NCBI GenBank assembly: GCA_964622665.1
Contig: CAZUUO010000003.1
Coordinates: forward strand, 1 to 45,448
DNA from: an uncultured Gammaproteobacteria bacterium
Lineage (GTDB): Bacteria > Patescibacteriota > Patescibacteriia > Magasanikbacterales > GCA-002688135
Direction of reading: 5' to 3'
DNA: 45,448 nt
Part shown: positions 427 through 33,726 of the stretch, one piece after another
Position numbering within the stretch: position 1 is the first letter of the stretch
Layout of the letters: every line of letters starts with the position of its first letter
Notes under the pieces: generated by a model
The model's input: the letters and a program-made list of their open reading frames with translations, nothing else
Told to the model about the DNA's origin: nothing
Databases searched by the model: none
Made by a program: the position numbers and the translations under genes

Positions 427-990
427 CTATTTAACAAATTTTTCGCCTTTTTTCCAATCAAGTCCACAGAGACCTCCACTTTGTAATGCCTCCAAGACGC
501 GTACCGTCTCACTAACACTTCGGCCCACGTTTAAGTCTGAGATGACCATATACTTCAATATGCCATCTGGAGAAATAATGAAGGTGCCCCGGAGCGCCTC
601 ACCATTCTCTTCAATTAGTACCCCGTAGTCACGTGATAATGAGTGAGCGGTGTCTGCAAGAATAGGAAATTTCACTTCTTGCATGTCGCGTTCAAACCAT
701 GCTTTGTGTGCCCACGTTGAATCCGTTGATGCCCCCAATACTACAGCATTTGCATCGGTAAATTCCTGTTCATGAGTTGCAAACCCTTTAATTTCAGTTG
801 GACAAATAAATGTAAAATCGCGAGGGTAGAAAAATAACACTACCCATTTTCCTTTGTAATCCTCAAGAGAAACTTTTTTAAACTCACCTGCTACATATGC
901 ATCAAGCGTAAATGTTGGAGCTTTTTTTCCTACTTGGAGCATTTCACAATTCCCCATTCCACAGCATGATGAAAATTCTTCGTTTTGCAT
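427..990 (-). CDS. Typical 2-Cys peroxiredoxin (AhpC/Prx1 family)
   Basis: Motif FFYPRDFTFICPTEI carries the peroxidatic Cys. C-terminal GGLCGLDW carries the resolving Cys. An alternative start at 942 (MLQVGKKAPTF) would remove a Cys-rich 16-aa extension. Confidence 0.9.
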   Translation of the reverse strand: MQNEEFSSCCGMGNCEMLQVGKKAPTFTLDAYVAGEFKKVSLEDYKGKWVVLFFYPRDFTFICPTEIKGFATHEQEFTDANAVVLGASTDSTWAHKAWFERDMQEVKFPILADTAHSLSRDYGVLIEENGEALRGTFIISPDGILKYMVISDLNVGRSVSETVRVLEALQSGGLCGLDWKKGEKFVK

Positions 991-999
991 ATTTGTTTG

Positions 1000-1596
1000 T
1001 TATATTTGTAATGATGAAACGTGCACAAATTTTTTCTCAACTTTTTCCCAATTTATTGATTGGAGATAATCCATAATATAGGTTTTTCTGTCTGATCCGT
1101 AGTCCATGAAATAAGCATGTTCATACACATCGAGCACGAGTAATGGAATAGTTCCCCACACACCTCCTTGATTATGAGCATCTCCAATAAATAATTTGAG
1201 GCGGTGTTCATGAGTATCAAAACCAAATACCACCCAACCACGAGCTGCCATACCACAACCTAGGAGCATTGCAGTAAAGCGCTCAAAGTTTCCAAATTCT
1301 TTTTCAATTTCTTGCAGGAGTGTGCCTTGTGGTTTTTCGCCATTTCCATCAATAGTATCAAAATAATACTCATGAAGATACACGCCATTTGTTGCAAAGG
1401 TTTCTGCGTCTTTTAAGCTGCGAATTGCACTATAGGTGATGTTTCCTGATGTTGGGTCTACGGTTTGCAATGCTTCCTCAACCTCATTCTTTTTGTTTAC
1501 ATAGCCCACATACAATTTATCCTCGTGGATACCTAGTGCTTTTTCACTTTGTCCCTTTGGTATTGTTGTACGACTAAATTTTTTTGGTGTATACAT
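1000..1596 (-). CDS. Fe/Mn-family superoxide dismutase
   Basis: C-terminal DVYEHAYFMDY matches the D-x-W-E-H-A-Y-Y metal-ligand motif. Upstream His motifs are LGIHEDKLYVGYV and VYLHEYYF. Length of about 198 aa fits the family. Confidence 0.85.
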   Translation of the reverse strand: MYTPKKFSRTTIPKGQSEKALGIHEDKLYVGYVNKKNEVEEALQTVDPTSGNITYSAIRSLKDAETFATNGVYLHEYYFDTIDGNGEKPQGTLLQEIEKEFGNFERFTAMLLGCGMAARGWVVFGFDTHEHRLKLFIGDAHNQGGVWGTIPLLVLDVYEHAYFMDYGSDRKTYIMDYLQSINWEKVEKKFVHVSSLQI

Positions 1597-1607
1597 AATG
1601 TTTTATA

Positions 1608-1835
1608 TTATCTTACTAATCGTTGTGATAACGCTTCCTCATTAAATCCCACTAGAATTTCACCATCAATATCAATTACCGGAACCCCCATCTGACCACT
1701 TTTTTCAATCATTTCTTCTCGTTTTTTTTCATCGTGGGCAACATCATTATCAGTAAAGGCGATGTTGTGTTTCGTGAAATACTCACGCGCTAAATGGCAG
1801 TACGGGCACGTTGGTGTTGAATAGAGTGTTATCAT
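1608..1835 (-). CDS. Glutaredoxin-like protein (CPYC active site, about 75 aa)
   Basis: MITLYSTPTCPYCHLAREYF...GVPVIDIDGEILVGFNEEAL is a classic Grx/NrdH fold signature. I shortened the track ORF 1608..2171 because its upstream part overlaps the DsbB gene and spans a terminator. Confidence 0.8.
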   Translation of the reverse strand: MITLYSTPTCPYCHLAREYFTKHNIAFTDNDVAHDEKKREEMIEKSGQMGVPVIDIDGEILVGFNEEALSQRLVR

Positions 1836-1860
1836 AACAAGCGTCAATAAGACTGTATCT

Positions 1861-1888
1861 ACTATAGCATGGGAAGTCATATCGTCAA
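1861..1888 (-). promoter_or_regulatory. Sigma-70-type promoter for the grx-sod-prx operon
   Basis: The minus strand reads TTGACG-16 nt-TATAGT with TGc immediately upstream (extended -10). It lies about 25 nt upstream of the Grx ATG. Confidence 0.5.
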
Positions 1889-1902
1889 CCTGTTCTGTGA
1901 GT

Positions 1903-1936
1903 AAAAAAACACCCCGATGTCTCGAGGTGTTTTTTA
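1903..1936. terminator. Bidirectional hairpin terminator between the dsbB operon and the grx operon
   Basis: AAAAAAA-CACCCCGA-tgtc-TCGAGGTG-TTTTTT: an 8-bp stem with one mismatch, with A/T runs on both sides. Confidence 0.55.
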
Positions 1937-2059
1937 AGGCTGGCTCGTTATCCAACAGACTTTGTGTCCAAAGTGTTTTGATTGCGGTGCCACTTAAAGC
2001 AATACTTATTATATACCATTTTTTTGCAGATTTGTCAACCTGATTTTGCTGTGTACATC

Positions 2060-2584
2060 TTATGATTTTCTCAGTGAAAGTATAATAGGTGGTAAAAGTA
2101 GCGCAAACACCGTCAATGACATGACGGGAATAGTAATATAGCCGAATGCATATACGTGCCGAATACTGCATGATACGGTGCCAAAGCTATTGCAGAAGGA
2201 ATTTGCTCCTGCTAAGGGAAACCACTGTAACCATGAATTATACAACGCAACAACGAAGCCAACTACCGTTGTAGCGAGTGCTGCAACTGTCCAAATTCGT
2301 TTATTTGTTTTATATGCCACTATGAGCAACACAAGACACGCTGCTAGTACATATCGTTGAATGTAGCACAATATACACGCTTCAAATTGCACGACGTAGG
2401 AATACAGGAAACTGCCCACGAGTCCTCCAATCGCAATAACTATAGCGCTCAAAATTCCCTTTTCTTGTCCCTTAGTAATTAACTTTTGCGCGTGGTCTTT
2501 ATGTAATACCAGATACAATAAACCTAAAAGGATAGCTATGTGTGTTGCAAAAATACTAACTTGAAACAACTGTGAAAGCCACAT
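2060..2584 (-). CDS. Disulfide bond formation protein B, BdbC-like (DsbB family)
   Basis: Polytopic membrane protein. ACILCYIQRY resembles the BdbC motif PCELCWYQRI. A later C-x8-C is followed by FGYITIP, as in BdbC (FGFITIP). The Cys-pair order is DsbB-like, not VKOR-like. Confidence 0.7.
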   Translation of the reverse strand: MWLSQLFQVSIFATHIAILLGLLYLVLHKDHAQKLITKGQEKGILSAIVIAIGGLVGSFLYSYVVQFEACILCYIQRYVLAACLVLLIVAYKTNKRIWTVAALATTVVGFVVALYNSWLQWFPLAGANSFCNSFGTVSCSIRHVYAFGYITIPVMSLTVFALLLPPIILSLRKS

Positions 2585-2590
2585 AAAGAA

Positions 2591-2959
2591 TTATGGTAAG
2601 GTGCAACCTGTTTTCTTAGCTAAATCACTTAAACTTATTTCCCCACTTTCTCTTGATTTATCAGCAAATTCCCAAGTTGGATATCCTTCGATCTTGGCTT
2701 GTTTGCAGACGTCTAATACTCCATTACCACTTGGCGTTGAGCATTCAATATAGGGTAATTTTTTTTGGCTTCTTCCAAAGAGTGCTTTTTGATTTTGGCA
2801 ATGTGGGCACCAGAATGCGCCGTAAAATTTTGCCCCTTTGTCAGTTATACATTGAGCAAAATTGTCCAGCGGTGCGCTTCTTGTGTAATAGTAAACACTT
2901 CCCACAATCAACAGCACTAATGCTGACAAAAAAATCCAGGTATTTTTTTCAAGTTTCAT
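2591..2959 (-). CDS. Membrane-anchored thioredoxin-fold oxidoreductase (CPHC), resembling the Trx-like partner domain of bacterial VKOR
   Basis: N-terminal TM anchor. FYGAFWCPHCQNQKALFG...LPYIECS...GYPTW closely follows my recollection of the Trx-like domain of cyanobacterial VKOR (YGAYWCPHCQDQKELFG...VPYVECS...SYPTW). Confidence 0.7.
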   Translation of the reverse strand: MKLEKNTWIFLSALVLLIVGSVYYYTRSAPLDNFAQCITDKGAKFYGAFWCPHCQNQKALFGRSQKKLPYIECSTPSGNGVLDVCKQAKIEGYPTWEFADKSRESGEISLSDLAKKTGCTLP

Positions 2960-19513: not shown

Positions 19514-20794
19514 TTACTTTACTGAGGAAAATAAGAGATTAGTTGGGCGAATATGCTTTTCATAACTCTCTTGTAACCGTATTTTTTTGTCTTCCTTTGT
19601 TTCTTCTTTGCTTGGTTGAGAAAGGGCAGCCAGAGATCTCACCATCCCCCTTCCCCATGTTTTAATGATGGTGTCTACCGCCATAAAGGCATTTTTTCTT
19701 TTTTCTACTTGTTTTTGATCAACTGAAAATGAGAGTTGGGTATTTTTTATATTTTGCATTTCAGACAATGTTACCCCTGTTGTGCGGTACTCTCTTCCCT
19801 TTTTATACATTTTCGCAAACATTTTTTGTAAGGCAGGAATGAAATCAAGAGGAATATTACTTGCTTGTTCAATATGGATATTTTCAGTGGTGATAATAAA
19901 ATTTTGTGTTTTAAGAAAAATAGCGATAGCGGTTGCTTTCGTGTTATGTAATCGTAACTTGTAGCAAGCGCGTTCTAAATTTACGATACACTGTCGATAC
20001 ACTTCTTGTTCTTGTGTTGTTTTTTCGAAGGTGTGAGATTTTGTAATAGTAAGATAGGAAGTTTTTTTAGTTGTCATCACTTCAAATACTGCAATCCCTT
20101 TTAACTCTTTGTAGGTTGTTAATAGGGGTGCGTCAGCGTGGCGCATAACAAACAACTCTCCACGAGCAATAAAGTCACTCACGGTTTTGATACCAAAACG
20201 TTGTAATAATTTTCTTTGCGCAACGCCGATACCCCACACATTTTCAATGGAAGTCTTTTGGGTCACCACTGCAACATCCTCTGATGAAATCATAACCTTT
20301 CGATTATGTGGTTTGTTATATGAACTTGCAATTTTTGCAAGAGTCTTACTCTTAGCACAACCAACAGACACCGAAATACCTAATGACAATTCGACATCTT
20401 CTTGAATGCACTGTAATAATTTTTCATAACTCATTTCTAGTGTTTGTGGAAGGTCTGTAATATCAGCAAATACTTCATCGATTGAATATTCTTCGACGTC
20501 ACCACAATAACTTTTAACAATATCAAACATTCTTCGTGAAAAAAGATTGTATACTTCAAAATCTGAATTAGTAATAATCGCGTGTGGGCACAATTGTTTC
20601 ACTTCTGCCATTCTCATTCCTCTTTTTACCCCGAATTTTTTTGCCTCATAACTAAATGCTGTTGCAATTCCTTTTTCTCCCCCGCATACAACTGGTTTCC
20701 CTTTCCATTGTGGATGCATTGCTTGTTCACACGATGCAAAGAATGCATCTGCATCAATATGAAGAATAACCCGTGATGAATTTCGAGTGCTCAT
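19514..20794 (-). CDS. dinB: Y-family DNA polymerase (Pol IV/DinB-like)
   Basis: ILHIDADAFFASCEQ, SIDEVFADITD and the little-finger region fit the family. It sits downstream of lexA on the same strand. Confidence 0.85.
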   Translation of the reverse strand: MSTRNSSRVILHIDADAFFASCEQAMHPQWKGKPVVCGGEKGIATAFSYEAKKFGVKRGMRMAEVKQLCPHAIITNSDFEVYNLFSRRMFDIVKSYCGDVEEYSIDEVFADITDLPQTLEMSYEKLLQCIQEDVELSLGISVSVGCAKSKTLAKIASSYNKPHNRKVMISSEDVAVVTQKTSIENVWGIGVAQRKLLQRFGIKTVSDFIARGELFVMRHADAPLLTTYKELKGIAVFEVMTTKKTSYLTITKSHTFEKTTQEQEVYRQCIVNLERACYKLRLHNTKATAIAIFLKTQNFIITTENIHIEQASNIPLDFIPALQKMFAKMYKKGREYRTTGVTLSEMQNIKNTQLSFSVDQKQVEKRKNAFMAVDTIIKTWGRGMVRSLAALSQPSKEETKEDKKIRLQESYEKHIRPTNLLFSSVK

Positions 20795-20826
20795 ATGACA
20801 ATGGTTAGATATATATCCCTATTCTT

Positions 20827-21183
20827 TTATACGGGAACTCCTACTGATTCCATTTCTGCACACAATAATTTGCCAATTTCTTCAGATAATCTTTGCAAGG
20901 TGGCGTATTCGTGTTGTGGAATTTCTTGTTGGGTAAAGAGGAGATACAATAAATACTTTGCTTCTTTCAGTAACCCAAATGATTTTTCAAGATTTTCTTT
21001 TTTAATTGATTCCCTCTGTAATGATACCGCATCGATATACTGTAATATCATGTTGAGTGAACTGGTGCGTAATGTTGATTTTAATTCTGGAATTTCTACA
21101 TTACTTGGTGTTGTGCTCAAGCGAAATATTTGAGCAACGAACTGATGCATACGCGTGCGTAATACGTCTTGAAATTCTGTCAT
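20827..21183 (-). CDS. Small helical protein, possibly four-helix-bundle (Avd / 23S rRNA IVS-protein-like)
   Basis: 118 aa. The helix layout and spacing resemble the S23-IVS/Avd family (LKSTLRTSSLNMILQYIDA...FGLLKEAKYLLYLL...EEIGKLL). This is only a pattern-level impression. Confidence 0.35.
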   Translation of the reverse strand: MTEFQDVLRTRMHQFVAQIFRLSTTPSNVEIPELKSTLRTSSLNMILQYIDAVSLQRESIKKENLEKSFGLLKEAKYLLYLLFTQQEIPQHEYATLQRLSEEIGKLLCAEMESVGVPV

Positions 21184-21191
21184 AAAAAATA

Positions 21192-21773
21192 TTATCGATA
21201 TTTACGAATAACTGCAGTAACTACACCAGCCACTGATAGCGCATTATTAGGAACTATTGGTCGATATTTTCTATTCGCTGGTCGCAACACGACATCTCTT
21301 CCTTTTTTCTCAAAAAACTTCATTGTCCATTCATGATCAACCTCTGCTACGACGATGTCACCATTTCTTGGATTTTTTCCACGTTCGAGAACCACGAAGT
21401 CTCCTGGTTGAATTCCGGCATCTATCATAGAGTCGCCTGAAACTTTCAATAAAAAACTTGCTTGGTGATTGGTAATCAAGAAATCATCGAGACTCACAAT
21501 GTCTGAAATTTCTTCTTCCGCATGTGTTGGGAACCCTGCTTGTACAGTTCCCAAAATTCGCAATCCTTTTTTTAAACCAAGTGGTACTAATTTTCCTTCA
21601 CTATCTTTTTCAATGAGCCGTGCATCAATCATTTTCTGTACTATTTGGAATACTGCATTTTTAGACTTAACTTCAAACAGTTCTAGCATCTCACGATAAC
21701 TCGGTAATCGCTTGTTTGCATCAAGAAACTTTCGAATTACGTTGACGCGTGTATCAAATTGATCGACTGACAT
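21192..21773 (-). CDS. lexA: LexA repressor (winged HTH plus S24 peptidase)
   Basis: Cleavage-site VQAG, catalytic Ser in SGDSM, Lys in TMKFF, and an N-terminal HTH. Confidence 0.9.
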   Translation of the reverse strand: MSVDQFDTRVNVIRKFLDANKRLPSYREMLELFEVKSKNAVFQIVQKMIDARLIEKDSEGKLVPLGLKKGLRILGTVQAGFPTHAEEEISDIVSLDDFLITNHQASFLLKVSGDSMIDAGIQPGDFVVLERGKNPRNGDIVVAEVDHEWTMKFFEKKGRDVVLRPANRKYRPIVPNNALSVAGVVTAVIRKYR

Positions 21774-26330: not shown

Positions 26331-26360
26331 AAAACTACCAGCACTCCTGGTAGTTTTTAA
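26329..26360. terminator. Perfect bidirectional terminator between convergent genes
   Basis: AAAAA-CTACCAG-cactc-CTGGTAG-TTTTT. Confidence 0.8.
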
Positions 26361-26686
26361 AAATCTCCATATTCAACACGCGGAGTTTTTTCTTCTGTTT
26401 CAACAAACACCTCGCCCGCTTCCTCAAAAATTGCGAGTGACCCTTGTGATTCCTTTCCAAATCCTTTTCCTGTTTTGTGATCAAATTCCCATTTATGATG
26501 GGGGCACACCACTTTACCGTTCTTTATAAACCCCTCACACAACGGCGCATCTGCGTGTACACAATAATTACCAATACAACCCAATTCACCATTCACGCGA
26601 AATACGGCATAGGTTCGTTGTTCAATCAGCACCCCTTTTCCTTTTCCTTCCTCGAAATCACTCGACATTCCTATTTTTATTTTCAT
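26357..26686 (-). CDS. Small Rieske [2Fe-2S] domain protein (NirD-like)
   Basis: C-V-H-x17-C-P-H-H (CVHADAPLCEGFIKNGKVVCPHH). A 4-nt ATGA overlap links it to the upstream nucleotidyltransferase gene. Confidence 0.8.
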   Translation of the reverse strand: MKIKIGMSSDFEEGKGKGVLIEQRTYAVFRVNGELGCIGNYCVHADAPLCEGFIKNGKVVCPHHKWEFDHKTGKGFGKESQGSLAIFEEAGEVFVETEEKTPRVEYGDF

Positions 26687-27774
26687 AATTCAACAACTGA
26701 ATTATCGCCAATCACTAGTTTATGACCGTGAGGTAATGAATCTTGTACTCGTGAAATAGTTGCACCCGCACCAACGATTGAATCTACGACACGAGCGTAT
26801 GCATTAATCTGTGCACCATCTAACACGATAGAATGTTCTATTTCACTGTTGCGAATCGTCACATTATTTCCCAGTGAGGTGTAGGGACCAATATATGAAT
26901 TTTCAATAATACAATTTTCTCCAATTACTACCGGTCCTCGAATTAAGGTCTTCTCACCAATAACGGCGTTTGCACCCACTCGTACTTTTCCTTGTAATTT
27001 TGCTGTTGGATGAATTGTTGCATTACGTGCAACTTCCATTTCATGCTCTGCCAATCCATCCAAAATATATTGATTACCAATGAGTAAATCTTCTGGTTTT
27101 CCCGTATCTTTCCACCATCCTTTAATTTCTTCAAACCCAACGCGTAATCCTTTGTCGATGTAATATTGGTGGATGTCGGTAATTTCATATTCACCGCGCG
27201 CACTTTTTTGCAAACTATCGAGCACTTCGAGTGCGTGATGGTCGTACACATAAATGCCGGTAATAGCAAAATCACTCTTTGGTTCTTTTGGTTTTTCTTC
27301 CACGCGAATAATTTTTCCATCTTTAATTTCGGGTACGCCAAATCGTTCAGGGTCAGGAACTCTTGAGAGCGCTAACATGCAATGAAATTCTTCTTGCTTG
27401 AATTTATTAATGAGCGCGTTTATGTCAGTACCCAAAATATTATCCCCCAGATACATGATAAATGAATCACCTGCACGTAAAAATCCTTCATCGCGAGCAT
27501 TCTTCACCACATGCGCCAAGCCCAATGCACCACCTCGTTGTTCGATATAGGTAATCGTACAATTAAATTTTTCACCATTACCAAAAACTTTTTGTAATTC
27601 TTGTTCACCCTCGTTGACTGAAATACCAATGTCGGTCACTCCCGCATCGACAATTTTTTCAATGGCGTATTGCAACATTGGCTTGTTTGCAAGCGGGATA
27701 GAATGTTTGTTTCGATTCCAGGTGATAGGACGCAACCGTGTTGCACGACCACCCGCAGTAATTAAAGCTTTCAT
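26683..27774 (-). CDS. Sugar-1-phosphate nucleotidylyltransferase, long form with C-terminal left-handed beta-helix (RmlA-long-like)
   Basis: MKALITAGGRATRLRPIT is the G-x-G-t-R-l signature. About 360 aa, with hexapeptide repeats at the C-terminus. Confidence 0.8.
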   Translation of the reverse strand: MKALITAGGRATRLRPITWNRNKHSIPLANKPMLQYAIEKIVDAGVTDIGISVNEGEQELQKVFGNGEKFNCTITYIEQRGGALGLAHVVKNARDEGFLRAGDSFIMYLGDNILGTDINALINKFKQEEFHCMLALSRVPDPERFGVPEIKDGKIIRVEEKPKEPKSDFAITGIYVYDHHALEVLDSLQKSARGEYEITDIHQYYIDKGLRVGFEEIKGWWKDTGKPEDLLIGNQYILDGLAEHEMEVARNATIHPTAKLQGKVRVGANAVIGEKTLIRGPVVIGENCIIENSYIGPYTSLGNNVTIRNSEIEHSIVLDGAQINAYARVVDSIVGAGATISRVQDSLPHGHKLVIGDNSVVEL

Positions 27775-27775
27775 A

Positions 27776-28828
27776 TTAGCGTATGTTTTTTAGTATTGAG
27801 AAATAGACGCGCATGATGGGATTGCCTACGTATCGCAACAACGGATTTTGCACTTCTTGAAAGTCGACTGTTGCAACTAATTTCTCGATAAACTGTGCAT
27901 TCGTTATGGTCCGTTCCGCAAACTGTTCTTTTCGTTTGTGTTGTATTGCCTGCCACGTTTCTTTTTTCAAAAAGTATTGCAATACCGCCAACTTTTGTTT
28001 TCCCCATCCATTTTTTATTGCATATACCCACATTGCCAATTCCATCCCGAGCAATAAGGGAGAACTTGCTATCAATAGTGGTAACGGGAAAAAGGTAAAT
28101 AGTACGAGATATCGATTGCGTTCCATGAAATATATTTGACGTACCGAACGACCAAACTCATATTTATGCGCCACACGTGACGTTGGTACCATGACGATAC
28201 GTTTTCCTCGCATGATGACTTTTAATGATAGCTCCACATCATCATGATACATAAAGTAGGATTCATCACACATCCCTATTTCTTGTGCGGTTTGCACGGT
28301 CATTGCCAGTGCAACACCCGACGCACTCCCAATGTCTACCAATTCTCGTTCTCCTTCTGTATCAAGTTCATTATACCCTACACAAAAACTAAATCCTAAA
28401 AATTGCAAAACATTGCCTCGGGAATTTGATCGTGGTGGGTTGGTATTATATAATAAAACTTTTGATTGTGTGATGCCAATCGTTTTGTCTGACAACGGCG
28501 CAACCAATTCTTTTGCCCAGGTACGTTCAAACACCGTATCCATGTTTGCTAATATCACCACTTCACAACCGTCAGTGATTGCTTGTCGCATTCCAATATT
28601 ATTTGCATGTCCCCATCCATTTCCCTCACTTCCCATTATGGTGGCTTCAGGATATATCGTCGCAATAGTTGTGCGCGTTTGTTCACTCGTGACATTATCA
28701 ACAATATACACGCGGAGCACATCACTGCCTAATGTTTGCAACCGTAAAGAATCTCGACACTGCGCGAGGAATTTTTCTGCGTAATCTTTATAATTAATAA
28801 GAATGACTCCTATCATCATATTCCCCAT
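27776..28828 (-). CDS. Glycosyltransferase family 2
   Basis: GVILINYKDYAEKFLAQCRDSL...VYIVDN, a later DD acidic motif and a C-terminal TM region. Confidence 0.85.
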   Translation of the reverse strand: MGNMMIGVILINYKDYAEKFLAQCRDSLRLQTLGSDVLRVYIVDNVTSEQTRTTIATIYPEATIMGSEGNGWGHANNIGMRQAITDGCEVVILANMDTVFERTWAKELVAPLSDKTIGITQSKVLLYNTNPPRSNSRGNVLQFLGFSFCVGYNELDTEGERELVDIGSASGVALAMTVQTAQEIGMCDESYFMYHDDVELSLKVIMRGKRIVMVPTSRVAHKYEFGRSVRQIYFMERNRYLVLFTFFPLPLLIASSPLLLGMELAMWVYAIKNGWGKQKLAVLQYFLKKETWQAIQHKRKEQFAERTITNAQFIEKLVATVDFQEVQNPLLRYVGNPIMRVYFSILKNIR

Positions 28829-29622
28829 TTCAAAAAATATTTTACCGCACTTTTCACATGCGTCCGTGTCAGTTTATCGAGAAAAAATGCTTTAACACCT
28901 TTAATTTTTGCACTGGCGCGCTGCCATCCGTGACGCAACACAATATCATGTACATAATACACTGATTTATGGTGTGACCAAAATGTTTTACACCAATCAA
29001 TGTCTTCAAAATACATGAAGTACTCATCACTCATATACCCCACACTCGCCAATAACTCACCACGCACCATCATGGCAGATCCCATGAGCGCGTCGACAGG
29101 TTGTGTTCGCGTATGATCAAAATCTTTCATTAAAAAACGATCAATTTCTTTTTGACCCCACACGGTTTTTCCTAAAAAGGTACGGCGTACCAACGGTGTA
29201 TACCATCGAGGGAATCGCCAACAAGAATGTTGTAACGTACCATCGGTATTTAATAATTTTGGTCCCGCAATACCAACTTGGGTATGCGCATCCATAAATG
29301 CAACCAACCGCTCACTCGTACGTTGTTCAAAAAATGTTATGTCTGGATTGATGACTAAATAGTATCGCGATTCAACCGCTTGCAATCCTTTATTTACGCC
29401 AAATCCATACCCACGATTTTCAGAGAGCATGACAGACGTAATCTTGTGTTGTAAGGGAGAACGCGCGATCACTCCTTCAATGCCATCACGTGAATCATTA
29501 TCAACGATAACAATACGCACATCCATGGTGGTGCGTTGCAAATCTTGCTCTATCGATGCTAAACATTCGCGCACATATTCGCGCATCTTATAGTTTACAA
29601 TGACAATTGTCAGATCGATCAT
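28816..29622 (-). CDS. Glycosyltransferase family 2
   Basis: LTIVIVNYKMREYVRECLASI...IVIVDNDSRDG...NRGYGFGVN. Confidence 0.85.
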   Translation of the reverse strand: MIDLTIVIVNYKMREYVRECLASIEQDLQRTTMDVRIVIVDNDSRDGIEGVIARSPLQHKITSVMLSENRGYGFGVNKGLQAVESRYYLVINPDITFFEQRTSERLVAFMDAHTQVGIAGPKLLNTDGTLQHSCWRFPRWYTPLVRRTFLGKTVWGQKEIDRFLMKDFDHTRTQPVDALMGSAMMVRGELLASVGYMSDEYFMYFEDIDWCKTFWSHHKSVYYVHDIVLRHGWQRASAKIKGVKAFFLDKLTRTHVKSAVKYFLKWGI

Positions 29623-30587
29623 AGGGAGTAATGTCTTTTTGCACGATTACGGTACTCCCTCCTTGTACGTACTATTGTAGGCAAAAGTCGCAAAAAGTCA
29701 ATGAACCCTCGCAAAACCTTTGGTTCTTTGAAAAAGAGATAGAAAAATTTCATTTTTTCACTCATGATAACCTGCACACTCCACAATCTATGCAGTGTTA
29801 GTACCGCGAGGTGGTTACGATATGAGTTGGTACGTGACGCGAGACTTCGTGATGATCTGCTCGTATGTGCCGCAATACTACGATCATGAAATGCGCGAGC
29901 TTTAGAAACAACGAGTGCCGAAAATCCAGCTTCATACAAACGGAGTGCCAATTCAACATCTTCTTTATAATTTTGAAAGGTGGGATCAAATAAACTTCCA
30001 CTTGTATGCAGTGCTTTTTGCAAATGTGCAACATTATAAAAGGGACACGTTCCCGAAACACCAAACACTTCTTCATCACATGAAGGTATTGTGGTCTGAC
30101 CGACTCCTATTTCAAAAAATTTTCCCCATTTGTTTGAGGTAATTCCTAGTGAATCAATAACAACATTTTCTGTATGAGGAATTTCTCCTGGATTGTTCCA
30201 TTGTAACAACACACCTGATGCAGCCGCACATTCAGTGTGTTCGTTCATTGCACGCATGACTTCTTCTGCATACGTTTTTTCAATATACAAATCTTGATTC
30301 ACGAGCCACACAAATTGTTCTCCTTTGTGTTCTATTTGTAATTTTCCAAACAATATATTGTGACCTCCGGCAAATCCATGATTTGTTTCTTCAAATATCA
30401 TGTGCGCGTGAGGAAATAATTGGGGAATATGTTTTTGTAAATACTCACGAGTTCCATCGGTTGAACCATTATCAAGAATACGCACCGTGCTTGGTGCTAT
30501 TGTTTGTTGGTGTAAGGAGTTGAGTAATGCGTTGAGATACCGCATACCATTCCAGGTGACCAGATGTAGTGCGTACATATTATCCAA
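29619..30587 (-). CDS. Glycosyltransferase family 2
   Basis: LHLVTWNGMRYLNALLNSL...VRILDNGSTDGT...NHGFAGGHN. Confidence 0.8.
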   Translation of the reverse strand: MDNMYALHLVTWNGMRYLNALLNSLHQQTIAPSTVRILDNGSTDGTREYLQKHIPQLFPHAHMIFEETNHGFAGGHNILFGKLQIEHKGEQFVWLVNQDLYIEKTYAEEVMRAMNEHTECAAASGVLLQWNNPGEIPHTENVVIDSLGITSNKWGKFFEIGVGQTTIPSCDEEVFGVSGTCPFYNVAHLQKALHTSGSLFDPTFQNYKEDVELALRLYEAGFSALVVSKARAFHDRSIAAHTSRSSRSLASRTNSYRNHLAVLTLHRLWSVQVIMSEKMKFFYLFFKEPKVLRGFIDFLRLLPTIVRTRREYRNRAKRHYSL

Positions 30588-31353
30588 AGATCCCGTGTTT
30601 CTTAAAATACTTCATCATTGAACTCACAAACATTTTTTGTTTTTTGAGTGTTGCAACTTGTGCAAATGACTGACCTATCAAATCAATCGCTTTTGTTTTT
30701 GGGGTATACCACACGGTATATCCTGCTTGTTCCATGCGCTTACACATATCAACTTCTTCAAACCACACAAAAAATTGTTCATCAAAATTTCCCACTTTTT
30801 GTAATGCTGATGAACGCATAAAAAAATATGAGCCGCGAATGGATGGTACAGCTTGTTCGCGCGTGTAATCAAAGGTGTGGCATAAATAGGTGTCGAGCAA
30901 TCGGGGAAATAATTTTCCTATCTTACTCACAATTATTGCTTGATCAAACCATGTTGGAAATTTTCGTACATGAGCAATGATTTCTCCTTTTTCATTTACT
31001 AACTGTACACCCAATACTCCAACATGTTCTCGCTGTTCCATTTCGTGCACACTTATGCGCAGCGTATCTTCAAATAATTGCATGTCGGGGTTTAACCACA
31101 ATACAAACCGTGCGTTAACCTGTTGTAACGCTTGATTGACTGCTTTTGACGTACCGACATTTTCAGTATTTTCAATCACCGTAACATCAGGAAATTCTGC
31201 GCGTACCATCGCAACACTGCTATCATGAGAAGCATTATCTACCACGATCACCTTTCGAACAATTTCAGGAGATGACTGTGCCACTGAATGCAAACATGCG
31301 CGAAGTTTATCGCGCACGTTCCATGAAACAATAATGATGGCAACATCGACCAT
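30580..31353 (-). CDS. Glycosyltransferase family 2
   Basis: VAIIIVSWNVRDKLRACLHSV...VIVVDNASHDSS. The start is set to ATG 31353, 4 nt after the upstream stop. The track start is 31410. Confidence 0.8.
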   Translation of the reverse strand: MVDVAIIIVSWNVRDKLRACLHSVAQSSPEIVRKVIVVDNASHDSSVAMVRAEFPDVTVIENTENVGTSKAVNQALQQVNARFVLWLNPDMQLFEDTLRISVHEMEQREHVGVLGVQLVNEKGEIIAHVRKFPTWFDQAIIVSKIGKLFPRLLDTYLCHTFDYTREQAVPSIRGSYFFMRSSALQKVGNFDEQFFVWFEEVDMCKRMEQAGYTVWYTPKTKAIDLIGQSFAQVATLKKQKMFVSSMMKYFKKHGIFG

Positions 31354-31357
31354 ATAC

Positions 31358-33307
31358 TTATGAAAGTTGTCGTTCTTTGAGCGATAACTTTTCAGCAGTA
31401 TCATTAGCAACTTTTTGCATTACGAGTTCAGCAGCTTCACTATGCAAACTCACTTTTAATTGTTGCATAATTTCACGTAATCGATCTTCGATGCGTGGTA
31501 ACACAATTCCTTCACCTGCTAATTTTTCCAATGACAACACACTGTCGATACGTTGTGCTAAGGTCATGCGATTTAATTCTTCTTTGGTAATCATCGCAAT
31601 TTGCATGTCAGGTTTGATAATTTCCTTTAGCATGAGTGCAATTTTGTAAGGAGAGGTAATGCCAGGATTTGCAACATTGTAAATACCGGTCGCTTTTTTC
31701 TCAATCAATTTTTCTGTCACTGCCAATAAATCTTCTACCACCGTACATGAGTTTGGAGTGTCGATAAATTTGGTATAGGTTAACATTTTACTTAATGCAT
31801 TACGGGGTGATAATTTTGCTGTTAACAATTGGCGTGGGCGAAGAATTAATACCGATAATCCTTTTCGTTTTGCGCGATCAAGTAACAAGGTGTCAGCAAA
31901 TACTTTTGTCCATGCATAAAAACACACCGGACTGACTTCATCAGTTTCTTTCCATACCTGACTTTCTGTTTTACTTTCTTGAATACAGCCACTTGAAATG
32001 TGCACCAAGTATAATCCAAATTCTTGACATGCTGCACCAATAGTATCAGCGCCAATAGTGTTGACTGCTAACGTTTCTTGTTGATTGCGTTCACACCAAT
32101 CAATATCAGTTTTTGCAACACAGTTAAGAACGGCACTGAATTTTTTATCTTTCAAACTTTCGCGTACCGCTGCTACATCACGAATATCAACGGTGATAAC
32201 GGTTACCTCATATCCTTTTTGTTCAAAATATTCTTTGTATAATGTTCCCAACATGCCGGCGCCAAAAATAGCGATATGTGCTTTTGGTTCTTCAGGAATA
32301 TGTGGATTGAGCGCTCCATATCGTTGTTCAATATCAGCGATATATTGGGGGTTGTTCGCATACCACATCACGGTTTCACGTAACGCATCACTAAAACGCG
32401 CTCGTGGATAGAGTGGTGAAAATTCTAATTCTTTGTACAATTTTGTTGCATCAAGTGCGTAACGACGATCATGGCCCAAACGATCCGGAACTGTGCGGAT
32501 AAAATCTTTTGGTTTTTGTAAGATGGTTAAAATTTCTTCTGCGATTTCACGGTTTGAGCGTTCATTACCAACGCCGACATTATATACTTCTCCTACTTTT
32601 CCTTTGTGGAGTACGGTATAAATTGCAGCGACATGATCGGTGACATGAATCCAATCACGGACATAAGCGCCATCCCCATACATGGGAATTTTTTTACCTT
32701 TCAATACCATGCTGACCCAGAATGGGATCATTTTTTCAGGAAATTGATGTGATCCAAAATTATTGGTGCATCGCGTAATAACTACCGGCACTTTGTAGGT
32801 TTCAAAATATGCCTTCGCTAATAAATCTGATGAAGCCTTTGATGCTGAGTATGGTGAACTTGGTTGTAACGGTGAGTTTTCTGTAAATCGTTCCTTATTT
32901 TCCAATGTTAACATTCCATATACTTCATCCGTTGAAACATGGACAAACTTTTTTACATTATATCGTTTTGCAGCTTCCAGCATTACTTGGGTGCCCCGCA
33001 CATTAGTCATGACAAAATCCGTTGCAAATCCGTGGATTGAACGATCAACATGAGATTCTGCGGCAGTATGAATAATAACATCGATACTATGATCTTCCAT
33101 GACGCGTGCTACTAATGATTCATCAGTGATTGAACCATGCACAAATACAAAACCTGGTTTACCCATTATCCCATCCAAATTATGCATGTTGCCTGCATAC
33201 GTTAAGGCATCAAGTACCACAATTGTCGCACTCTCTTCACGCTCGCGAATATATTTTACTAAGTGAGAACCAATAAATCCTGCGCCGCCGGTAATAAGAT
33301 AATTCAT
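31358..33307 (-). CDS. Fusion protein: NDP-glucose 4,6-dehydratase (RmlB-like, aa 1-330) plus NRS/ER-like 3,5-epimerase/4-reductase (aa 343-649)
   Basis: N-domain motifs: ITGGAGFIGSH, HVSTDEVYG, YSASKASSD and QFPEKMIP. C-domain motifs: IFGAGMLGT, DIDWCERNQQET, FYAWTK, SPRNALSKMLTYTKFIDTPNSCTVVEDLL and TGIYNVANPG. These resemble plant NRS/ER, from which I recall VDWCESHKVET, FYSKTK, NPRNFITKI..VVDIPNSMT and TGIYNFTNPG. Confidence 0.85.
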   Translation of the reverse strand: MNYLITGGAGFIGSHLVKYIREREESATIVVLDALTYAGNMHNLDGIMGKPGFVFVHGSITDESLVARVMEDHSIDVIIHTAAESHVDRSIHGFATDFVMTNVRGTQVMLEAAKRYNVKKFVHVSTDEVYGMLTLENKERFTENSPLQPSSPYSASKASSDLLAKAYFETYKVPVVITRCTNNFGSHQFPEKMIPFWVSMVLKGKKIPMYGDGAYVRDWIHVTDHVAAIYTVLHKGKVGEVYNVGVGNERSNREIAEEILTILQKPKDFIRTVPDRLGHDRRYALDATKLYKELEFSPLYPRARFSDALRETVMWYANNPQYIADIEQRYGALNPHIPEEPKAHIAIFGAGMLGTLYKEYFEQKGYEVTVITVDIRDVAAVRESLKDKKFSAVLNCVAKTDIDWCERNQQETLAVNTIGADTIGAACQEFGLYLVHISSGCIQESKTESQVWKETDEVSPVCFYAWTKVFADTLLLDRAKRKGLSVLILRPRQLLTAKLSPRNALSKMLTYTKFIDTPNSCTVVEDLLAVTEKLIEKKATGIYNVANPGITSPYKIALMLKEIIKPDMQIAMITKEELNRMTLAQRIDSVLSLEKLAGEGIVLPRIEDRLREIMQQLKVSLHSEAAELVMQKVANDTAEKLSLKERQLS

Positions 33308-33309
33308 AC

Positions 33310-33726
33310 TTATATCGTTAATGCTCCTATAATATGTTCCGCTACATTTTGCACTTGTTGTTCATTTTCGTAATCTTGTCCATGCCAATGTGTAAATCCA
33401 TCTCCTTCAAAACGTGGAATCACATGAACATGTAAGTGAAATACCGCTTGTCCAGCGACAGCACCATTATTTTGCACAATATTATATCCTTCAACTCCCA
33501 ATCCTTTCACAACAGCACGTCCAATTTTCTGAGTCATTTCAAACAATCGATGGATTGTTTCTTTATCCGCTGTTTGTAAATTAGCGATGTGTGTTTTAGG
33601 TACAATAAGTGTGTGACCAGGATTTGTTGGATGGATATCAAGAAAGGCAACCACATATTCATCTTCTGCGATGATGGTTGCGGGAATTTCACGTGCAATT
33701 ATTTTACAGAATAGACAGTCATTCAT
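33310..33726 (-). CDS. HIT-family (histidine triad) nucleotide hydrolase/transferase
   Basis: CLFCKII near the N-terminus and the triad HLHVHVIPR. Confidence 0.9.
   Translation of the reverse strand: MNDCLFCKIIAREIPATIIAEDEYVVAFLDIHPTNPGHTLIVPKTHIANLQTADKETIHRLFEMTQKIGRAVVKGLGVEGYNIVQNNGAVAGQAVFHLHVHVIPRFEGDGFTHWHGQDYENEQQVQNVAEHIIGALTI

What the first reader, a model, noticed from the sequence alone, without database searches (positions are those of the whole stretch)
31358..33307. Plant-RHM-like fusion: 4,6-dehydratase fused to an NRS/ER-type epimerase-reductase, with no rmlC nearby
One 649-aa ORF joins a canonical RmlB-type dehydratase to a C-terminal SDR. The dehydratase carries GGAGFIGSH, STDEVYG and YSASK.

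The diagnostic stretches of the SDR match my recollection of plant NRS/ER and the C-terminal domain of RHM proteins, rather than bacterial RmlD:
- DIDWCERNQQET
- SSGCIQE
- FYAWTK
- SPRNALSKMLTYTKFIDTPNSCTVVEDLL
- TGIYNVANPG

RmlD has DKAE, STDYVF and NDQ.G.PT at the corresponding positions. NRS/ER enzymes carry out both 3,5-epimerisation and 4-reduction. That would explain why the operon has a nucleotidyltransferase and this fusion but no cupin-type RmlC. To my knowledge the fused dehydratase plus epimerase-reductase architecture is characteristic of plants and fungi, not bacteria.
Basis: partly seen in the sequence, partly recalled or inferred. Interest (0 to 1): 0.65.

Follow-up and report, generated by a model that had tools for sequence, protein, structure and literature searches.

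The report
Bacterial one-protein rhamnose synthase fusion
A tiny uncultured bacterium (Patescibacteria) has fused the first enzyme of rhamnose-sugar synthesis to a "plant/giant-virus-type" enzyme that probably does the last two steps alone, showing that this supposedly eukaryotic enzyme type is in fact common in uncultured prokaryotes and has been fused independently of plants.

Summary
A 649-aa ORF (31358-33307, minus strand) joins a bona fide dTDP-glucose 4,6-dehydratase (TIGR01181, 450 bits, cut-off 365) to an SDR domain of the NRS/ER / Mimivirus L780 type, not RmlD.

The evidence for the NRS/ER type:
- The best solved matches are Arabidopsis NRS/ER and L780.
- The mutagenesis-verified epimerisation pair is present (Cys441 and Lys507). 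RmlD has Tyr and Thr at these positions.
- A fully supported tree branch separates the domain from RmlD.

The fusion is not an assembly artefact. Independent metagenomes carry it with up to 99 substitutions, no indels, and 36 of 39 listed changes at third codon positions.

The 45-kb contig has no RmlC. Neither do the ±10 kb flanks of 46 related Patescibacteria loci. The operon's nucleotidyltransferase is long-form RmlA, so the likely product is dTDP-L-rhamnose made without RmlC. That activity is inferred, not shown.

- The fusion is not plant-derived. Its N-domain is bacterial RmlB-like, its C-domain lies in a Patescibacteria clade, and an AU test rejects union with the eukaryote/virus clade (p = 0.004).
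- It is not unique. More than 120 clusters of standalone homologs lie next to rmlB in Patescibacteria, and about 20 clusters are fused.

The parts
31358..33307 (-). 649-aa fusion ORF: RmlB-type 4,6-dehydratase plus NRS/ER-type 3,5-epimerase/4-reductase (P0001)
   Evidence: The ORF and its translation come, and the domain assignments. Fused homologs are listed. Independent assemblies show no indel across it.
32333..33307 (-). N-domain, aa 1-325: dTDP-glucose 4,6-dehydratase. It has the GGAGFIGSH NAD site, the T126-D127-E128 triad and Y153/K157.
   Evidence: It matches TIGR01181 at 450 bits, above the 365 cut-off. The motif positions were located. It is 52-55% identical to standalone bacterial RmlB.
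32276..32332 (-). Linker, aa 326-344 (…ALNPHIPEEPKAH…). The NPHI motif is conserved among group-A fusions.
   Evidence: The conservation is visible in the alignment. Contigs from runs X2 and X3 cross this stretch with 0 gaps.
31457..32275 (-). C-domain, aa 345-617: NRS/ER / L780-type SDR. It has the G349xG351xxG354 Rossmann motif, the triad S439/Y464/K468, and the epimerisation pair C441 (codon 31985-31987) and K507 (codon 31787-31789).
   Evidence: PF04321 matches at 1e-46. The PDB ranking is and the residue mapping to 4qqr and 7jid. The AF2 model has pLDDT 93, and its best fold matches are 7jid and 4qqr.
31361..31456 (-). C-terminal tail, aa 618-649: a predicted long helix. It is absent from the aligned part of NRS/ER and L780 and is conserved in Patescibacteria homologs.
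   Evidence: The model shows a helix at model residues 286-310 with falling pLDDT. Standalone homologs cover 96-98% of the query including this tail. See also the alignment.
33310..33726 (-). HIT/HinT-like gene, 138 aa. Its stop lies 2 nt before the fusion start. It is syntenic with rmlB in 23 of 46 related loci.
   Evidence: PF01230 matches at 4.5e-32 and NF045834 scores 115 bits. The junction sequence was read and the synteny counted.
30580..31353 (-). GT2 glycosyltransferase 1. The likely ATG at 31353 lies 4 nt after the fusion stop.
   Evidence: PF00535 matches at 4e-21. There is a weak hit to the TIGR01556 rhamnosyltransferase subfamily, 52 bits against a 200 cut-off. Start candidates were listed.
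29619..30587 (-). GT2 glycosyltransferase 2
   Evidence: PF00535 matches at 4.6e-13.
28816..29622 (-). GT2 glycosyltransferase 3
   Evidence: PF00535 matches at 4.1e-15. TIGR01556 scores 50 bits, below its cut-off.
27776..28828 (-). GT2 glycosyltransferase 4
   Evidence: PF00535 matches at 1.1e-8. TIGR01556 scores 42 bits, below its cut-off.
26683..27774 (-). Long-form glucose-1-phosphate thymidylyltransferase (RmlA with a C-terminal left-handed beta-helix)
   Evidence: It matches the TIGR01208 rmlA_long equivalog at 401.5 bits, above the 320 cut-off. PF00483 plus Hexapep also match.
26357..26686 (-). Rieske [2Fe-2S] ferredoxin, 109 aa. It overlaps the rmlA stop by 4 nt. Whether it belongs to the pathway is unknown.
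   Evidence: PF00355 matches at 1.5e-17.

Best explanation
The ORF encodes a genuine two-domain enzyme of a Patescibacteria (CPR) bacterium.

Proposed mechanism:
1. The operon's long-form RmlA makes dTDP-D-glucose.
2. The N-terminal domain is an RmlB-type, NAD-dependent dTDP-glucose 4,6-dehydratase. It makes dTDP-4-keto-6-deoxy-D-glucose.
3. The C-terminal domain is an SDR of the NRS/ER (UER1) / Mimivirus L780 type. Cys441 and Lys507 act as the acid/base pair that epimerises C3 and C5 of the 4-keto intermediate.
4. The Ser439/Tyr464/Lys468 triad then reduces C4 with NAD(P)H.

One polypeptide thus converts dTDP-glucose to dTDP-L-rhamnose without a cupin RmlC. The four GT2 enzymes downstream probably use the product for a surface glycan.

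Origin: the fusion arose inside Patescibacteria from the adjacent gene pair rmlB plus a standalone NRS/ER-type gene, which is the common arrangement there. It arose independently of plant RHM.

Shown: the architecture, the family assignment, the catalytic residues, the reality of the fusion, the gene context, the absence of RmlC from the contig and from related loci, and the phylogenetic independence.

Inferred: the bifunctional activity, the L-rhamnose stereochemistry, the dTDP specificity, and the absence of RmlC from the rest of the genome.
For: Family assignment:
- The N-domain passes the TIGR01181 equivalog cut-off.
- The best solved matches of the C-domain are 4qqr NRS/ER (2.9e-30) and 7jid L780 (5.7e-24), ahead of all RmlD structures, best 9e-16.
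- The AF2 model (pLDDT 93.2) matches 7jid and 4qqr first.

Catalytic residues:
- Query C441 aligns with At C115 and L780 chain C111, which is native Cys108.
- Query K507 aligns with At K183 and L780 chain K178, which is native Lys175.
- RmlD references have Tyr and Thr at these positions.
- Cys108 and Lys175 of L780 are catalytic by mutagenesis, and L780 accepts dTDP substrates (PMC9614988).
- The pair is conserved in 116 and 115 of 118 standalone Patescibacteria homologs.

Phylogeny:
- The split between RmlD and NRS/ER-like proteins has 100/100 support.
- The query lies in a 42-row Patescibacteria clade with 99/94 support.

Context:
- The operon has an rmlA_long equivalog.
- No RmlC is found in the contig or in the ±10 kb flanks of 46 related loci. 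The probe control was positive.
- 28 loci have a separate rmlB directly upstream, and 6 have the two genes fused.

Reality of the fusion and selection on it:
- Contigs from X2 and X3 show 0 gaps.
- 36 of 39 listed substitutions fall at codon position 3.
- 99 nucleotide changes give only 12 amino-acid changes.

Organism: the named best hits of the window's DnaB are all Patescibacteria, Uhrbacteria or Magasanikbacteria.
Against: - No biochemical data exist for any prokaryotic member.
- Sequence alone cannot fix the product stereochemistry.
- The fold search barely separates NRS/ER from RmlD (TM 0.88 against 0.87).
- The domain still matches the PF04321 and TIGR01214 families, the latter below its cut-off.
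- A sister group of fusions (group B) has Tyr in place of the Cys, so the Cys is not indispensable in every relative.
- The residue aligned to Arg45 of NRS/ER and Arg36 of L780 is Asp374. Cofactor use may therefore differ from NADPH-dependent L780.
- The GT2 hits to the rhamnosyltransferase subfamily are far below the cut-off.
- At least one CPR genome is reported to have all four of rmlA-D (PMC5220378).
- The rest of this genome could not be searched for RmlC.
Confidence: 0.7

Rival explanations
1. The C-domain epimerises and reduces but gives another product. It could yield dTDP-6-deoxy-L-talose (the opposite face at C4) or act as a mono-epimerase/reductase, like the Megavirus Mg535 3-epimerase/4-reductase. 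The operon would then make a 6-deoxyhexose other than L-rhamnose.
For: - Sequence cannot fix stereochemistry.
- The review PMC9614988 describes an RmlD-like viral enzyme with only C3 epimerase activity.
- The query's clade is distinct from the characterised NRS/ER and L780 clade and only 25-30% identical to it.
- The GT2 matches to rhamnosyltransferases are weak.
Against: - Both residues of the verified 3,5-epimerisation pair are conserved.
- Every characterised member of the Cys/Lys family makes NDP-L-rhamnose (PMC9614988, PMC6556577).
- The rmlA-rmlB context is the classic rhamnose context.
Confidence: 0.13
2. The C-domain is only a 4-ketoreductase, like Fcd or a quinovose-type reductase. 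RmlB plus this reductase would make dTDP-D-fucose or dTDP-D-quinovose, which would also explain why there is no RmlC.
For: - No RmlC is found in the contig or in related loci.
- The domain belongs to the RmlD_sub_bind superfamily.
- Group-B relatives lack the Cys.
Against: - Conservation of Cys441 and Lys507 (116 and 115 of 118 homologs) would be unexplained for a plain reductase.
- The domain sits on the NRS/ER side of a split from RmlD reductases with 100/100 support.
Confidence: 0.1
3. The pathway is conventional. A separate RmlC is encoded on another contig, and the C-domain works as an RmlD-like reductase.
For: - The whole genome could not be searched.
- One Parcubacterium is reported to have rmlABCD (PMC5220378).
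Against: - 0 of 46 related species-level loci have RmlC within 10 kb, whereas the archaeal RmlD-type control locus has it adjacent.
- The C-domain fails the rmlD equivalog cut-off and lacks the STDYVF and NDQxGxPT motifs.
Confidence: 0.05
4. The fusion is an assembly or frameshift artefact that merges two adjacent genes.
For: In most related genomes the two genes are adjacent but separate. A single lost stop codon or an indel could mimic a fusion.
Against: - Independent assemblies from other studies cross the junction with 85-99 substitutions and 0 gaps. No indel is seen in any of the four runs.
- The substitutions are biased to third codon positions.
- About 20 fused clusters at 40-90% identity share the conserved NPHI linker.
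- Six species-level genomes carry the fused form.
Confidence: 0.01

Closest known systems
Arabidopsis NRS/ER (UER1, PDB 4qqr) and Mimivirus L780 UDP-L-rhamnose synthase (PDB 7jid)
   Same: - They are the best sequence matches and the best fold matches.
- They share the same SDR triad and the same Cys/Lys epimerisation pair.
- They fall on the same side of the RmlD split.
- Both replace RmlC plus RmlD with one active site. L780 also accepts dTDP substrates (PMC9614988).
   Different: - Identity is only 25-30%.
- The query belongs to a separate, well-supported prokaryotic clade.
- It has an extra C-terminal helix of about 30 aa.
- Asp374 sits where NRS/ER and L780 have Arg.
- The gene context is dTDP (rmlA_long), not UDP.
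- It is fused to a dehydratase.
- No prokaryotic member has been characterised.
Plant RHM1-3 (trifunctional UDP-L-rhamnose synthase), represented here by P0236 from Phlomoides rotata
   Same: It has the same domain order, with the 4,6-dehydratase N-terminal and the 3,5-epimerase/4-reductase C-terminal, and a similar length (649 against 675 aa). The predicted overall chemistry is the same.
   Different: - The fusion is independent. The C-domain lies in a different clade, and the AU test rejects joining them (p = 0.004).
- The N-domain is 41% identical to the RHM N-domain but 52-55% identical to bacterial RmlB.
- The substrate is probably dTDP-linked.
Bacterial RmlB + RmlC + RmlD pathway, and ordinary RmlB-RmlD fusions such as P0036
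   Same: - The N-domain is a full RmlB equivalog.
- The operon has RmlA.
- The C-domain shares the RmlD_sub_bind fold.
   Different: - There is no RmlC.
- The C-domain fails the rmlD equivalog cut-off.
- It has SSGC in place of STDY, RNALSK in place of the RmlD loop, and NSCT in place of GTPT.
- P0036 shows what a true RmlB-RmlD fusion looks like: it has STDYVFDG.
GDP-L-fucose synthase (GMER/WcaG/Fcl)
   Same: It follows the same logic. One SDR active site performs 3,5-epimerisation and 4-reduction of a 4-keto-6-deoxy sugar nucleotide using a Cys-based acid/base pair. It was the model used to identify Cys108 and Lys175 in L780 (PMC9614988).
   Different: - It belongs to a different family. NF047922 matches only the N-domain, weakly.
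- Its substrate is GDP-mannose-derived.
- Its second catalytic residue is His rather than Lys (from established knowledge).

Membership tests
dTDP-glucose 4,6-dehydratase (RmlB, TIGR01181) | Whole-domain score above the curated equivalog cut-off | tested here: met
   The score is 450.1 bits against a cut-off of 365.1, over residues 3-323.
dTDP-glucose 4,6-dehydratase (RmlB, TIGR01181) | GxxGxxG NAD site, catalytic Thr-Asp-Glu, and Tyr-x-x-x-Lys | tested here: met
   GGAGFIGSH lies at 7-15, S-T126-D127-E128 at 125-131, and Y153..K157 is present. All are invariant in alignment A1.
NRS/ER (UER1) / L780-type 3,5-epimerase/4-reductase | Closer in sequence to characterised NRS/ER and L780 than to RmlD | tested here: met
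   4qqr scores 2.9e-30 and 7jid 5.7e-24, against 9.3e-16 for the best RmlD. The domain falls on the NRS/ER side of a branch with 100/100 support.
NRS/ER (UER1) / L780-type 3,5-epimerase/4-reductase | Catalytic acid/base pair Cys (L780 Cys108, At Cys115) and Lys (L780 Lys175, At Lys183) | tested here: met
   C441 and K507 align to these residues, while RmlD references have Tyr and Thr. The role of the pair is documented in PMC9614988.
NRS/ER (UER1) / L780-type 3,5-epimerase/4-reductase | SDR Ser/Thr-Tyr-Lys triad for 4-keto reduction | tested here: met
   S439, Y464 and K468 align to At T113, Y144 and K148.
NRS/ER (UER1) / L780-type 3,5-epimerase/4-reductase | Demonstrated bifunctional activity giving NDP-beta-L-rhamnose | not testable with these tools
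   This requires an enzyme assay. It is inferred from the residues and from the absence of RmlC.
NRS/ER (UER1) / L780-type 3,5-epimerase/4-reductase | Preference for UDP-linked substrate | tested here: inconclusive
   The context points to dTDP, because the operon has the rmlA_long equivalog and a TIGR01181 N-domain. L780 accepts both nucleotides (PMC9614988).
dTDP-4-dehydrorhamnose reductase (RmlD, TIGR01214) | Score above the equivalog cut-off | tested here: not met
   The score is 149.6 bits against a cut-off of 224.05.
dTDP-4-dehydrorhamnose reductase (RmlD, TIGR01214) | STDYVF and (N/H)DQxGxPT motifs | tested here: not met
   The query has SSGCIQ and TPNSCT at these positions, while the RmlD references carry the motifs.
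Plant/nematode bi-domain RHM | Dehydratase N-terminal and epimerase-reductase C-terminal in one polypeptide | tested here: met
   The fusion is verified as real.
Plant/nematode bi-domain RHM | Common descent with eukaryotic RHM (orthology) | tested here: not met
   The eukaryote/virus clade (100/99 support) is separate from the query's clade. The AU test rejects joining them (ΔlnL 131, p = 0.0038). The N-domain is nearer to bacterial RmlB.

The most novel reading that the evidence does not exclude
The bifunctional NRS/ER-type 3,5-epimerase/4-reductase is originally a prokaryotic invention. It replaces RmlC plus RmlD across much of Patescibacteria and occurs in other uncultured bacteria and archaea. 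On this reading, the eukaryotic and giant-virus NRS/ER and RHM enzymes descend from one prokaryotic donor lineage, and the RHM-like dehydratase-ER fusion evolved independently at least twice, once in eukaryotes and once or more in Patescibacteria. This would answer the question left open by Yin et al. 2011 (PMC3220709), who could not say where the 3,5-epimerase-4-reductase gene came from. It would also define an RmlC-independent bacterial route to dTDP-L-rhamnose.
Probability: 0.45. Interest if true: 0.65.

Novelty: new variant of a known kind. Interest (0 to 1): 0.55.

Why it matters
Textbooks and recent surveys treat rhamnose activation as a clean split. Bacteria and archaea use RmlB, RmlC and RmlD. 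Plants, algae, fungi and giant viruses use NRS/ER or RHM (PMC6556577; bioRxiv 10.1101/854612).

In 2011 only four bacterial homologs of the RHM C-domain were known. The fusion was assigned to early eukaryotes, and the origin of the epimerase-reductase was left open (PMC3220709).

The data here change that picture:
- The NRS/ER type is abundant in uncultured prokaryotes. It usually sits next to rmlB, with no RmlC nearby.
- Patescibacteria have independently made RHM-like fusions.

If confirmed biochemically, this would do three things:
- Add an RmlC-independent bacterial route to dTDP-L-rhamnose.
- Correct pathway-completeness calls for CPR genomes. Their rhamnose pathway would currently look "incomplete", and NCBI names these genes only "sugar nucleotide-binding protein".
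- Provide a compact single-polypeptide catalyst for dTDP-rhamnose synthesis.

RmlC is also discussed as an antibacterial target, so organisms that bypass it are relevant background.

Tried and rejected
- **Whole-genome RmlC search.** I substituted tblastn and Pfam scans of the contig and of 46 related loci.
- **Exact look-up of the protein's contigs.** The look-up of encoding contigs for P0001 found no record.
- **Fold search as a discriminator.** It ranks L780 and NRS/ER first, but RmlD follows within 0.01 TM units. The fold alone does not decide the question.
- **Counting fusion events inside Patescibacteria.** The tree needs 5 changes, but the AU test does not reject a single origin (p = 0.39). 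The number remains 1 to 5.
- **Literature searches for a prior description.** Searches for a bacterial RmlB-NRS/ER fusion, using terms such as RmlBD, RmlB-RmlD and trifunctional, returned only rmlBDAC operon names. Two searches failed on term syntax, as did one paper query.
- **Cofactor preference.** I considered reading it from Asp374, which aligns with Arg in NRS/ER and L780. I left it as a low-confidence remark only.
- **Full-length AF2 model.** I considered one to look for substrate channelling and did not run it. The tool returns no inter-domain confidence that would make the result interpretable.
Full report
**1. Observation**

The ORF at 31358-33307 is real and lies on the minus strand. 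It encodes 649 aa, kept as P0001.

Pfam and NCBIfam resolve two SDR domains:
- Residues 3-323 pass the equivalog cut-off for dTDP-glucose 4,6-dehydratase (TIGR01181, 450 bits, cut-off 365).
- Residues 345-617 match the RmlD substrate-binding family (PF04321, 1e-46). They fall below the rmlD equivalog cut-off (TIGR01214, 149.6 against 224).

**2. Surroundings**

The gene sits in a tightly packed minus-strand operon:
- A HIT/HinT-like gene (33310-33726), whose stop lies 2 nt before the fusion's ATG.
- The fusion itself.
- Four GT2 glycosyltransferases. The first probably starts 4 nt after the fusion's stop.
- A long-form glucose-1-phosphate thymidylyltransferase (TIGR01208 equivalog, 401 bits, cut-off 320).
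- A small Rieske ferredoxin.

Three of the GT2 proteins hit the rhamnosyltransferase subfamily only weakly.

The window is a whole 45,448-bp NCBI contig. The named best hits of its DnaB are all Patescibacteria, Uhrbacteria or Magasanikbacteria at 60-68% identity. The host is therefore a CPR bacterium, and the source appears to be a wastewater metagenome.

**3. No RmlC in reach**

- tblastn with three RmlC domains, taken from RmlB-RmlC fusion proteins returned, found nothing in the window (best E = 1.3).
- The same probes found nothing in the ±10 kb flanks of 46 related bacterial loci.
- They did detect an RmlC at E = 2e-21 next to an archaeal RmlD-like gene (L047), so the probe works.
- Pfam scans of 40 ORFs of the window show no PF00908 or other cupin.

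**4. The C-domain is NRS/ER-type, not RmlD**

(a) Among solved structures it matches Arabidopsis NRS/ER (4qqr, 2.9e-30) and Mimivirus L780 UDP-L-rhamnose synthase (7jid, 5.7e-24). The best RmlD follows at 9e-16.

(b) Residue mapping:
- Cys441 aligns with At Cys115 and L780 chain Cys111, which is native Cys108.
- Lys507 aligns with At Lys183 and L780 chain Lys178, which is native Lys175.
- Ser439, Tyr464 and Lys468 align with the SDR triad.
- RmlD references have Tyr and Thr at the first two positions.

According to the review PMC9614988, Cys108 and Lys175 of L780 were identified as the key catalytic residues and confirmed by mutagenesis. [quoted passage not shown]

(c) In maximum-likelihood trees, seven RmlD references are separated from all NRS/ER-like sequences by a branch with 100/100 support.

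(d) An AlphaFold model of the domain (pLDDT 93.2) finds 7jid and 4qqr as its best fold matches. RmlD structures follow so closely that the fold alone is not discriminating.

**5. The fusion is real**

About 20 protein clusters at 40-90% identity share the architecture, and the group-A fusions share a conserved NPHI linker.

Contigs from public runs were laid on the locus:
- An assembly from a different study (X2) covers all 2.1 kb with 99 substitutions and no gap.
- Another (X3) crosses the domain junction with 85 substitutions and no gap.
- No indel was reported in any of the four runs.

Of the 39 listed substitutions, 36 fall on third codon positions. The X2 variant differs at only 12 of 649 residues. 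No catalytic residue changes in any strain. The frame is therefore translated and under purifying selection across both domains.

**6. What it came from**

The C-domain's closest relatives are more than 120 clusters of standalone 301-333-aa proteins. They are 53-63% identical over 96-98% of its length. They come mostly from Patescibacteria, and NCBI calls them "sugar nucleotide-binding protein", while JGI sometimes calls them "3,5-epimerase/4-reductase".

Across 46 species-level Patescibacteria loci:
- 28 have a separate rmlB directly upstream on the same strand. One more has it 1.1 kb upstream.
- 6 have the two genes fused in one ORF.
- 23 have the HIT gene upstream.
- 22 have the long rmlA downstream.

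The Cys and Lys pair is present in 116 and 115 of 118 standalone homologs.

In the careful tree, the query lies in a 7-member all-fused clade (99/90 support). That clade sits inside a 42-member Patescibacteria clade (99/94) that mixes fused and standalone forms. The fused state needs 5 changes on the tree, but a single origin is not rejected (AU p = 0.39).

A second set of fusions, group B, carries Tyr in place of the catalytic Cys.

**7. Relation to plant RHM**

Thirteen sequences form their own clade with 100/99 support: Arabidopsis NRS/ER, a plant RHM (P0236, Phlomoides rotata), L780 and related long or short proteins. This clade lies in the other half of the tree.

It is nested among ~280-aa standalone proteins. 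The genomic contexts I sampled for those were prokaryotic:
- An archaeal ribosomal-protein operon (P0142).
- Bacterial contigs (P0167, P0285, P0179, P0162).
- P0285 sits in an NTP-transferase, RmlB, NRS/ER-like operon without RmlC.

Forcing the Patescibacteria fusions and the eukaryote/virus clade together costs 131 log-likelihood units and is rejected (p-AU = 0.0038).

The N-domain is 52-55% identical to standalone bacterial RmlB. It is only 36-41% identical to the dehydratase halves of the RHM-type proteins.

The architecture is therefore RHM-like by convergence.

Caveats:
- The tree samples the 150 representatives most similar to my query, so eukaryotes are under-sampled.
- The root rests on RmlD.
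- The prokaryotic origin of the "other" sequences was verified for only five of them.

**8. Mechanism proposed**

1. RmlA(long) makes dTDP-glucose.
2. The N-domain dehydrates it to dTDP-4-keto-6-deoxy-D-glucose.
3. In the C-domain, Cys441 and Lys507 epimerise C3 and C5.
4. The Ser/Tyr/Lys triad reduces C4.
5. The product is dTDP-L-rhamnose, which the downstream GT2 enzymes use.

Steps 1 and 2 rest on equivalog-level matches. Steps 3 to 5 are inferred from conserved, mutagenesis-validated residues in characterised homologs and from the absence of RmlC.

The rivals cannot be excluded without an assay. They are a different stereochemical outcome, a plain reductase making a D-6-deoxyhexose, or an RmlC elsewhere in the genome.

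**9. Novelty**

- Yin et al. 2011 (PMC3220709) found only four bacterial homologs of the RHM C-domain. They placed bi-domain RHM only in plants and nematodes, assigned the fusion to early eukaryotes, and left the origin of the epimerase-reductase open.
- A 2019 survey found the udp (Ugd/Uger) pathway only in eukaryotes and Mimivirus (bioRxiv 10.1101/854612).
- Wagstaff et al. 2019 treat NRS/ER and RHM as the "plant-like" route (PMC6556577).
- My searches of the held library found no description of a bacterial RmlB-NRS/ER fusion or of prokaryotic NRS/ER-type enzymes. Subscription journals are not covered.
- The proteins themselves are already in public databases under generic names.

I therefore class this as a new variant of a known kind, and as one instance of a widespread, overlooked prokaryotic family. 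It is not a categorically new system.

**10. Earlier scan notes**

- Note e1-4586157 describes the same fusion in another genome, also without rfbC. Its quoted linker and Rossmann sequence match P0004 in my alignment.
- Note e1-4470744 reads the surrounding 36 kb as a surface-glycoprotein glycosylation region, which fits the GT-rich context.
- Note e1-1310468 reports an rmlA-rmlD-rmlB operon without rmlC in another genome. It may be a standalone case of the same family, and I did not test it.

Noticed in passing
window 33310-33726 (-); L002-L046: A HIT/HinT-like gene lies 2 nt upstream of the fusion. The same gene sits directly upstream of rmlB in 23 of 46 Patescibacteria loci. This conserved synteny suggests an unexplained role in the nucleotide-sugar pathway.
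   Followed up: partly
P0013-P0020, P0136; loci L039, L040: A second set of RmlB-ER fusions ('group B', 640-724 aa, with a longer linker) has Tyr in place of the catalytic Cys (STGYVHHS) but keeps the Lys (HPKNVLAK). Whether these proteins still epimerise is unknown.
   Followed up: partly
P0012 (1016 aa, Logan contig of 6.7 kb): This protein has the same fusion, but with an intein-like insert of about 365 aa (PF05204 homing endonuclease). The insert splits the catalytic S|TDEVYG motif of the dehydratase domain (…LQVS|C … CGN|TDEVYG…).
   Followed up: partly
P0022 (883 aa, JGI contig of 3.3 kb): This is a triple fusion, in the order dehydratase, NRS/ER-like domain, NTP-transferase. It would put all activities from glucose-1-phosphate to NDP-rhamnose in one polypeptide.
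   Followed up: partly
P0256, P0206, P0220, P0266 (eukaryote/virus NRS/ER clade): Several members of this clade are unusual:
- P0256 is named as a Chlamydiota MAG protein, yet it groups next to plant NRS/ER.
- P0206 and P0220 are reversed-order fusions, with the ER domain N-terminal and the dehydratase C-terminal.
- P0266 is an RmlC-NRS/ER-SDR triple protein on a 90-kb contig.
   Followed up: no
window 26357-26686 (-): A 109-aa Rieske [2Fe-2S] ferredoxin overlaps the stop of rmlA by 4 nt, which suggests translational coupling. No partner oxygenase is evident nearby.
   Followed up: no
window 427-2959 (-): A cluster of redox-defence genes lies here: AhpC/peroxiredoxin, Fe/Mn superoxide dismutase, a glutaredoxin-domain protein, DsbB and a thioredoxin-like protein. 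This is notable in a Patescibacteria genome.
   Followed up: no
window 19514-21773 (-): UmuC-like (IMS) and UmuD/LexA-like (S24) genes flank a small ORF at 20827-21183. That ORF has weak matches to 23S_rRNA_IVP and bAvd-like families, both below their cut-offs.
   Followed up: no
L001, L003, L004, L006, L009, L011 and others: Many TPA metagenome-assembled records titled 'uncultured Gammaproteobacteria bacterium' carry Patescibacteria-type gene neighbourhoods. One is a 0.93-Mb chromosome (OZ246400.1). The organism names look like placeholders or mislabels.
   Followed up: no
L048 (Logan SRR16110253 contig): A standalone NRS/ER-type gene (P0142) lies beside an RmlB-like SDR and a GT2. It is immediately upstream of an archaeal ribosomal-protein operon (L3-L4-L23-L2-S19-L22-S3-L29-SUI1-RNase P p29-S17-L14-L24-S4e-L5). 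The family therefore also occurs in archaea.
   Followed up: partly
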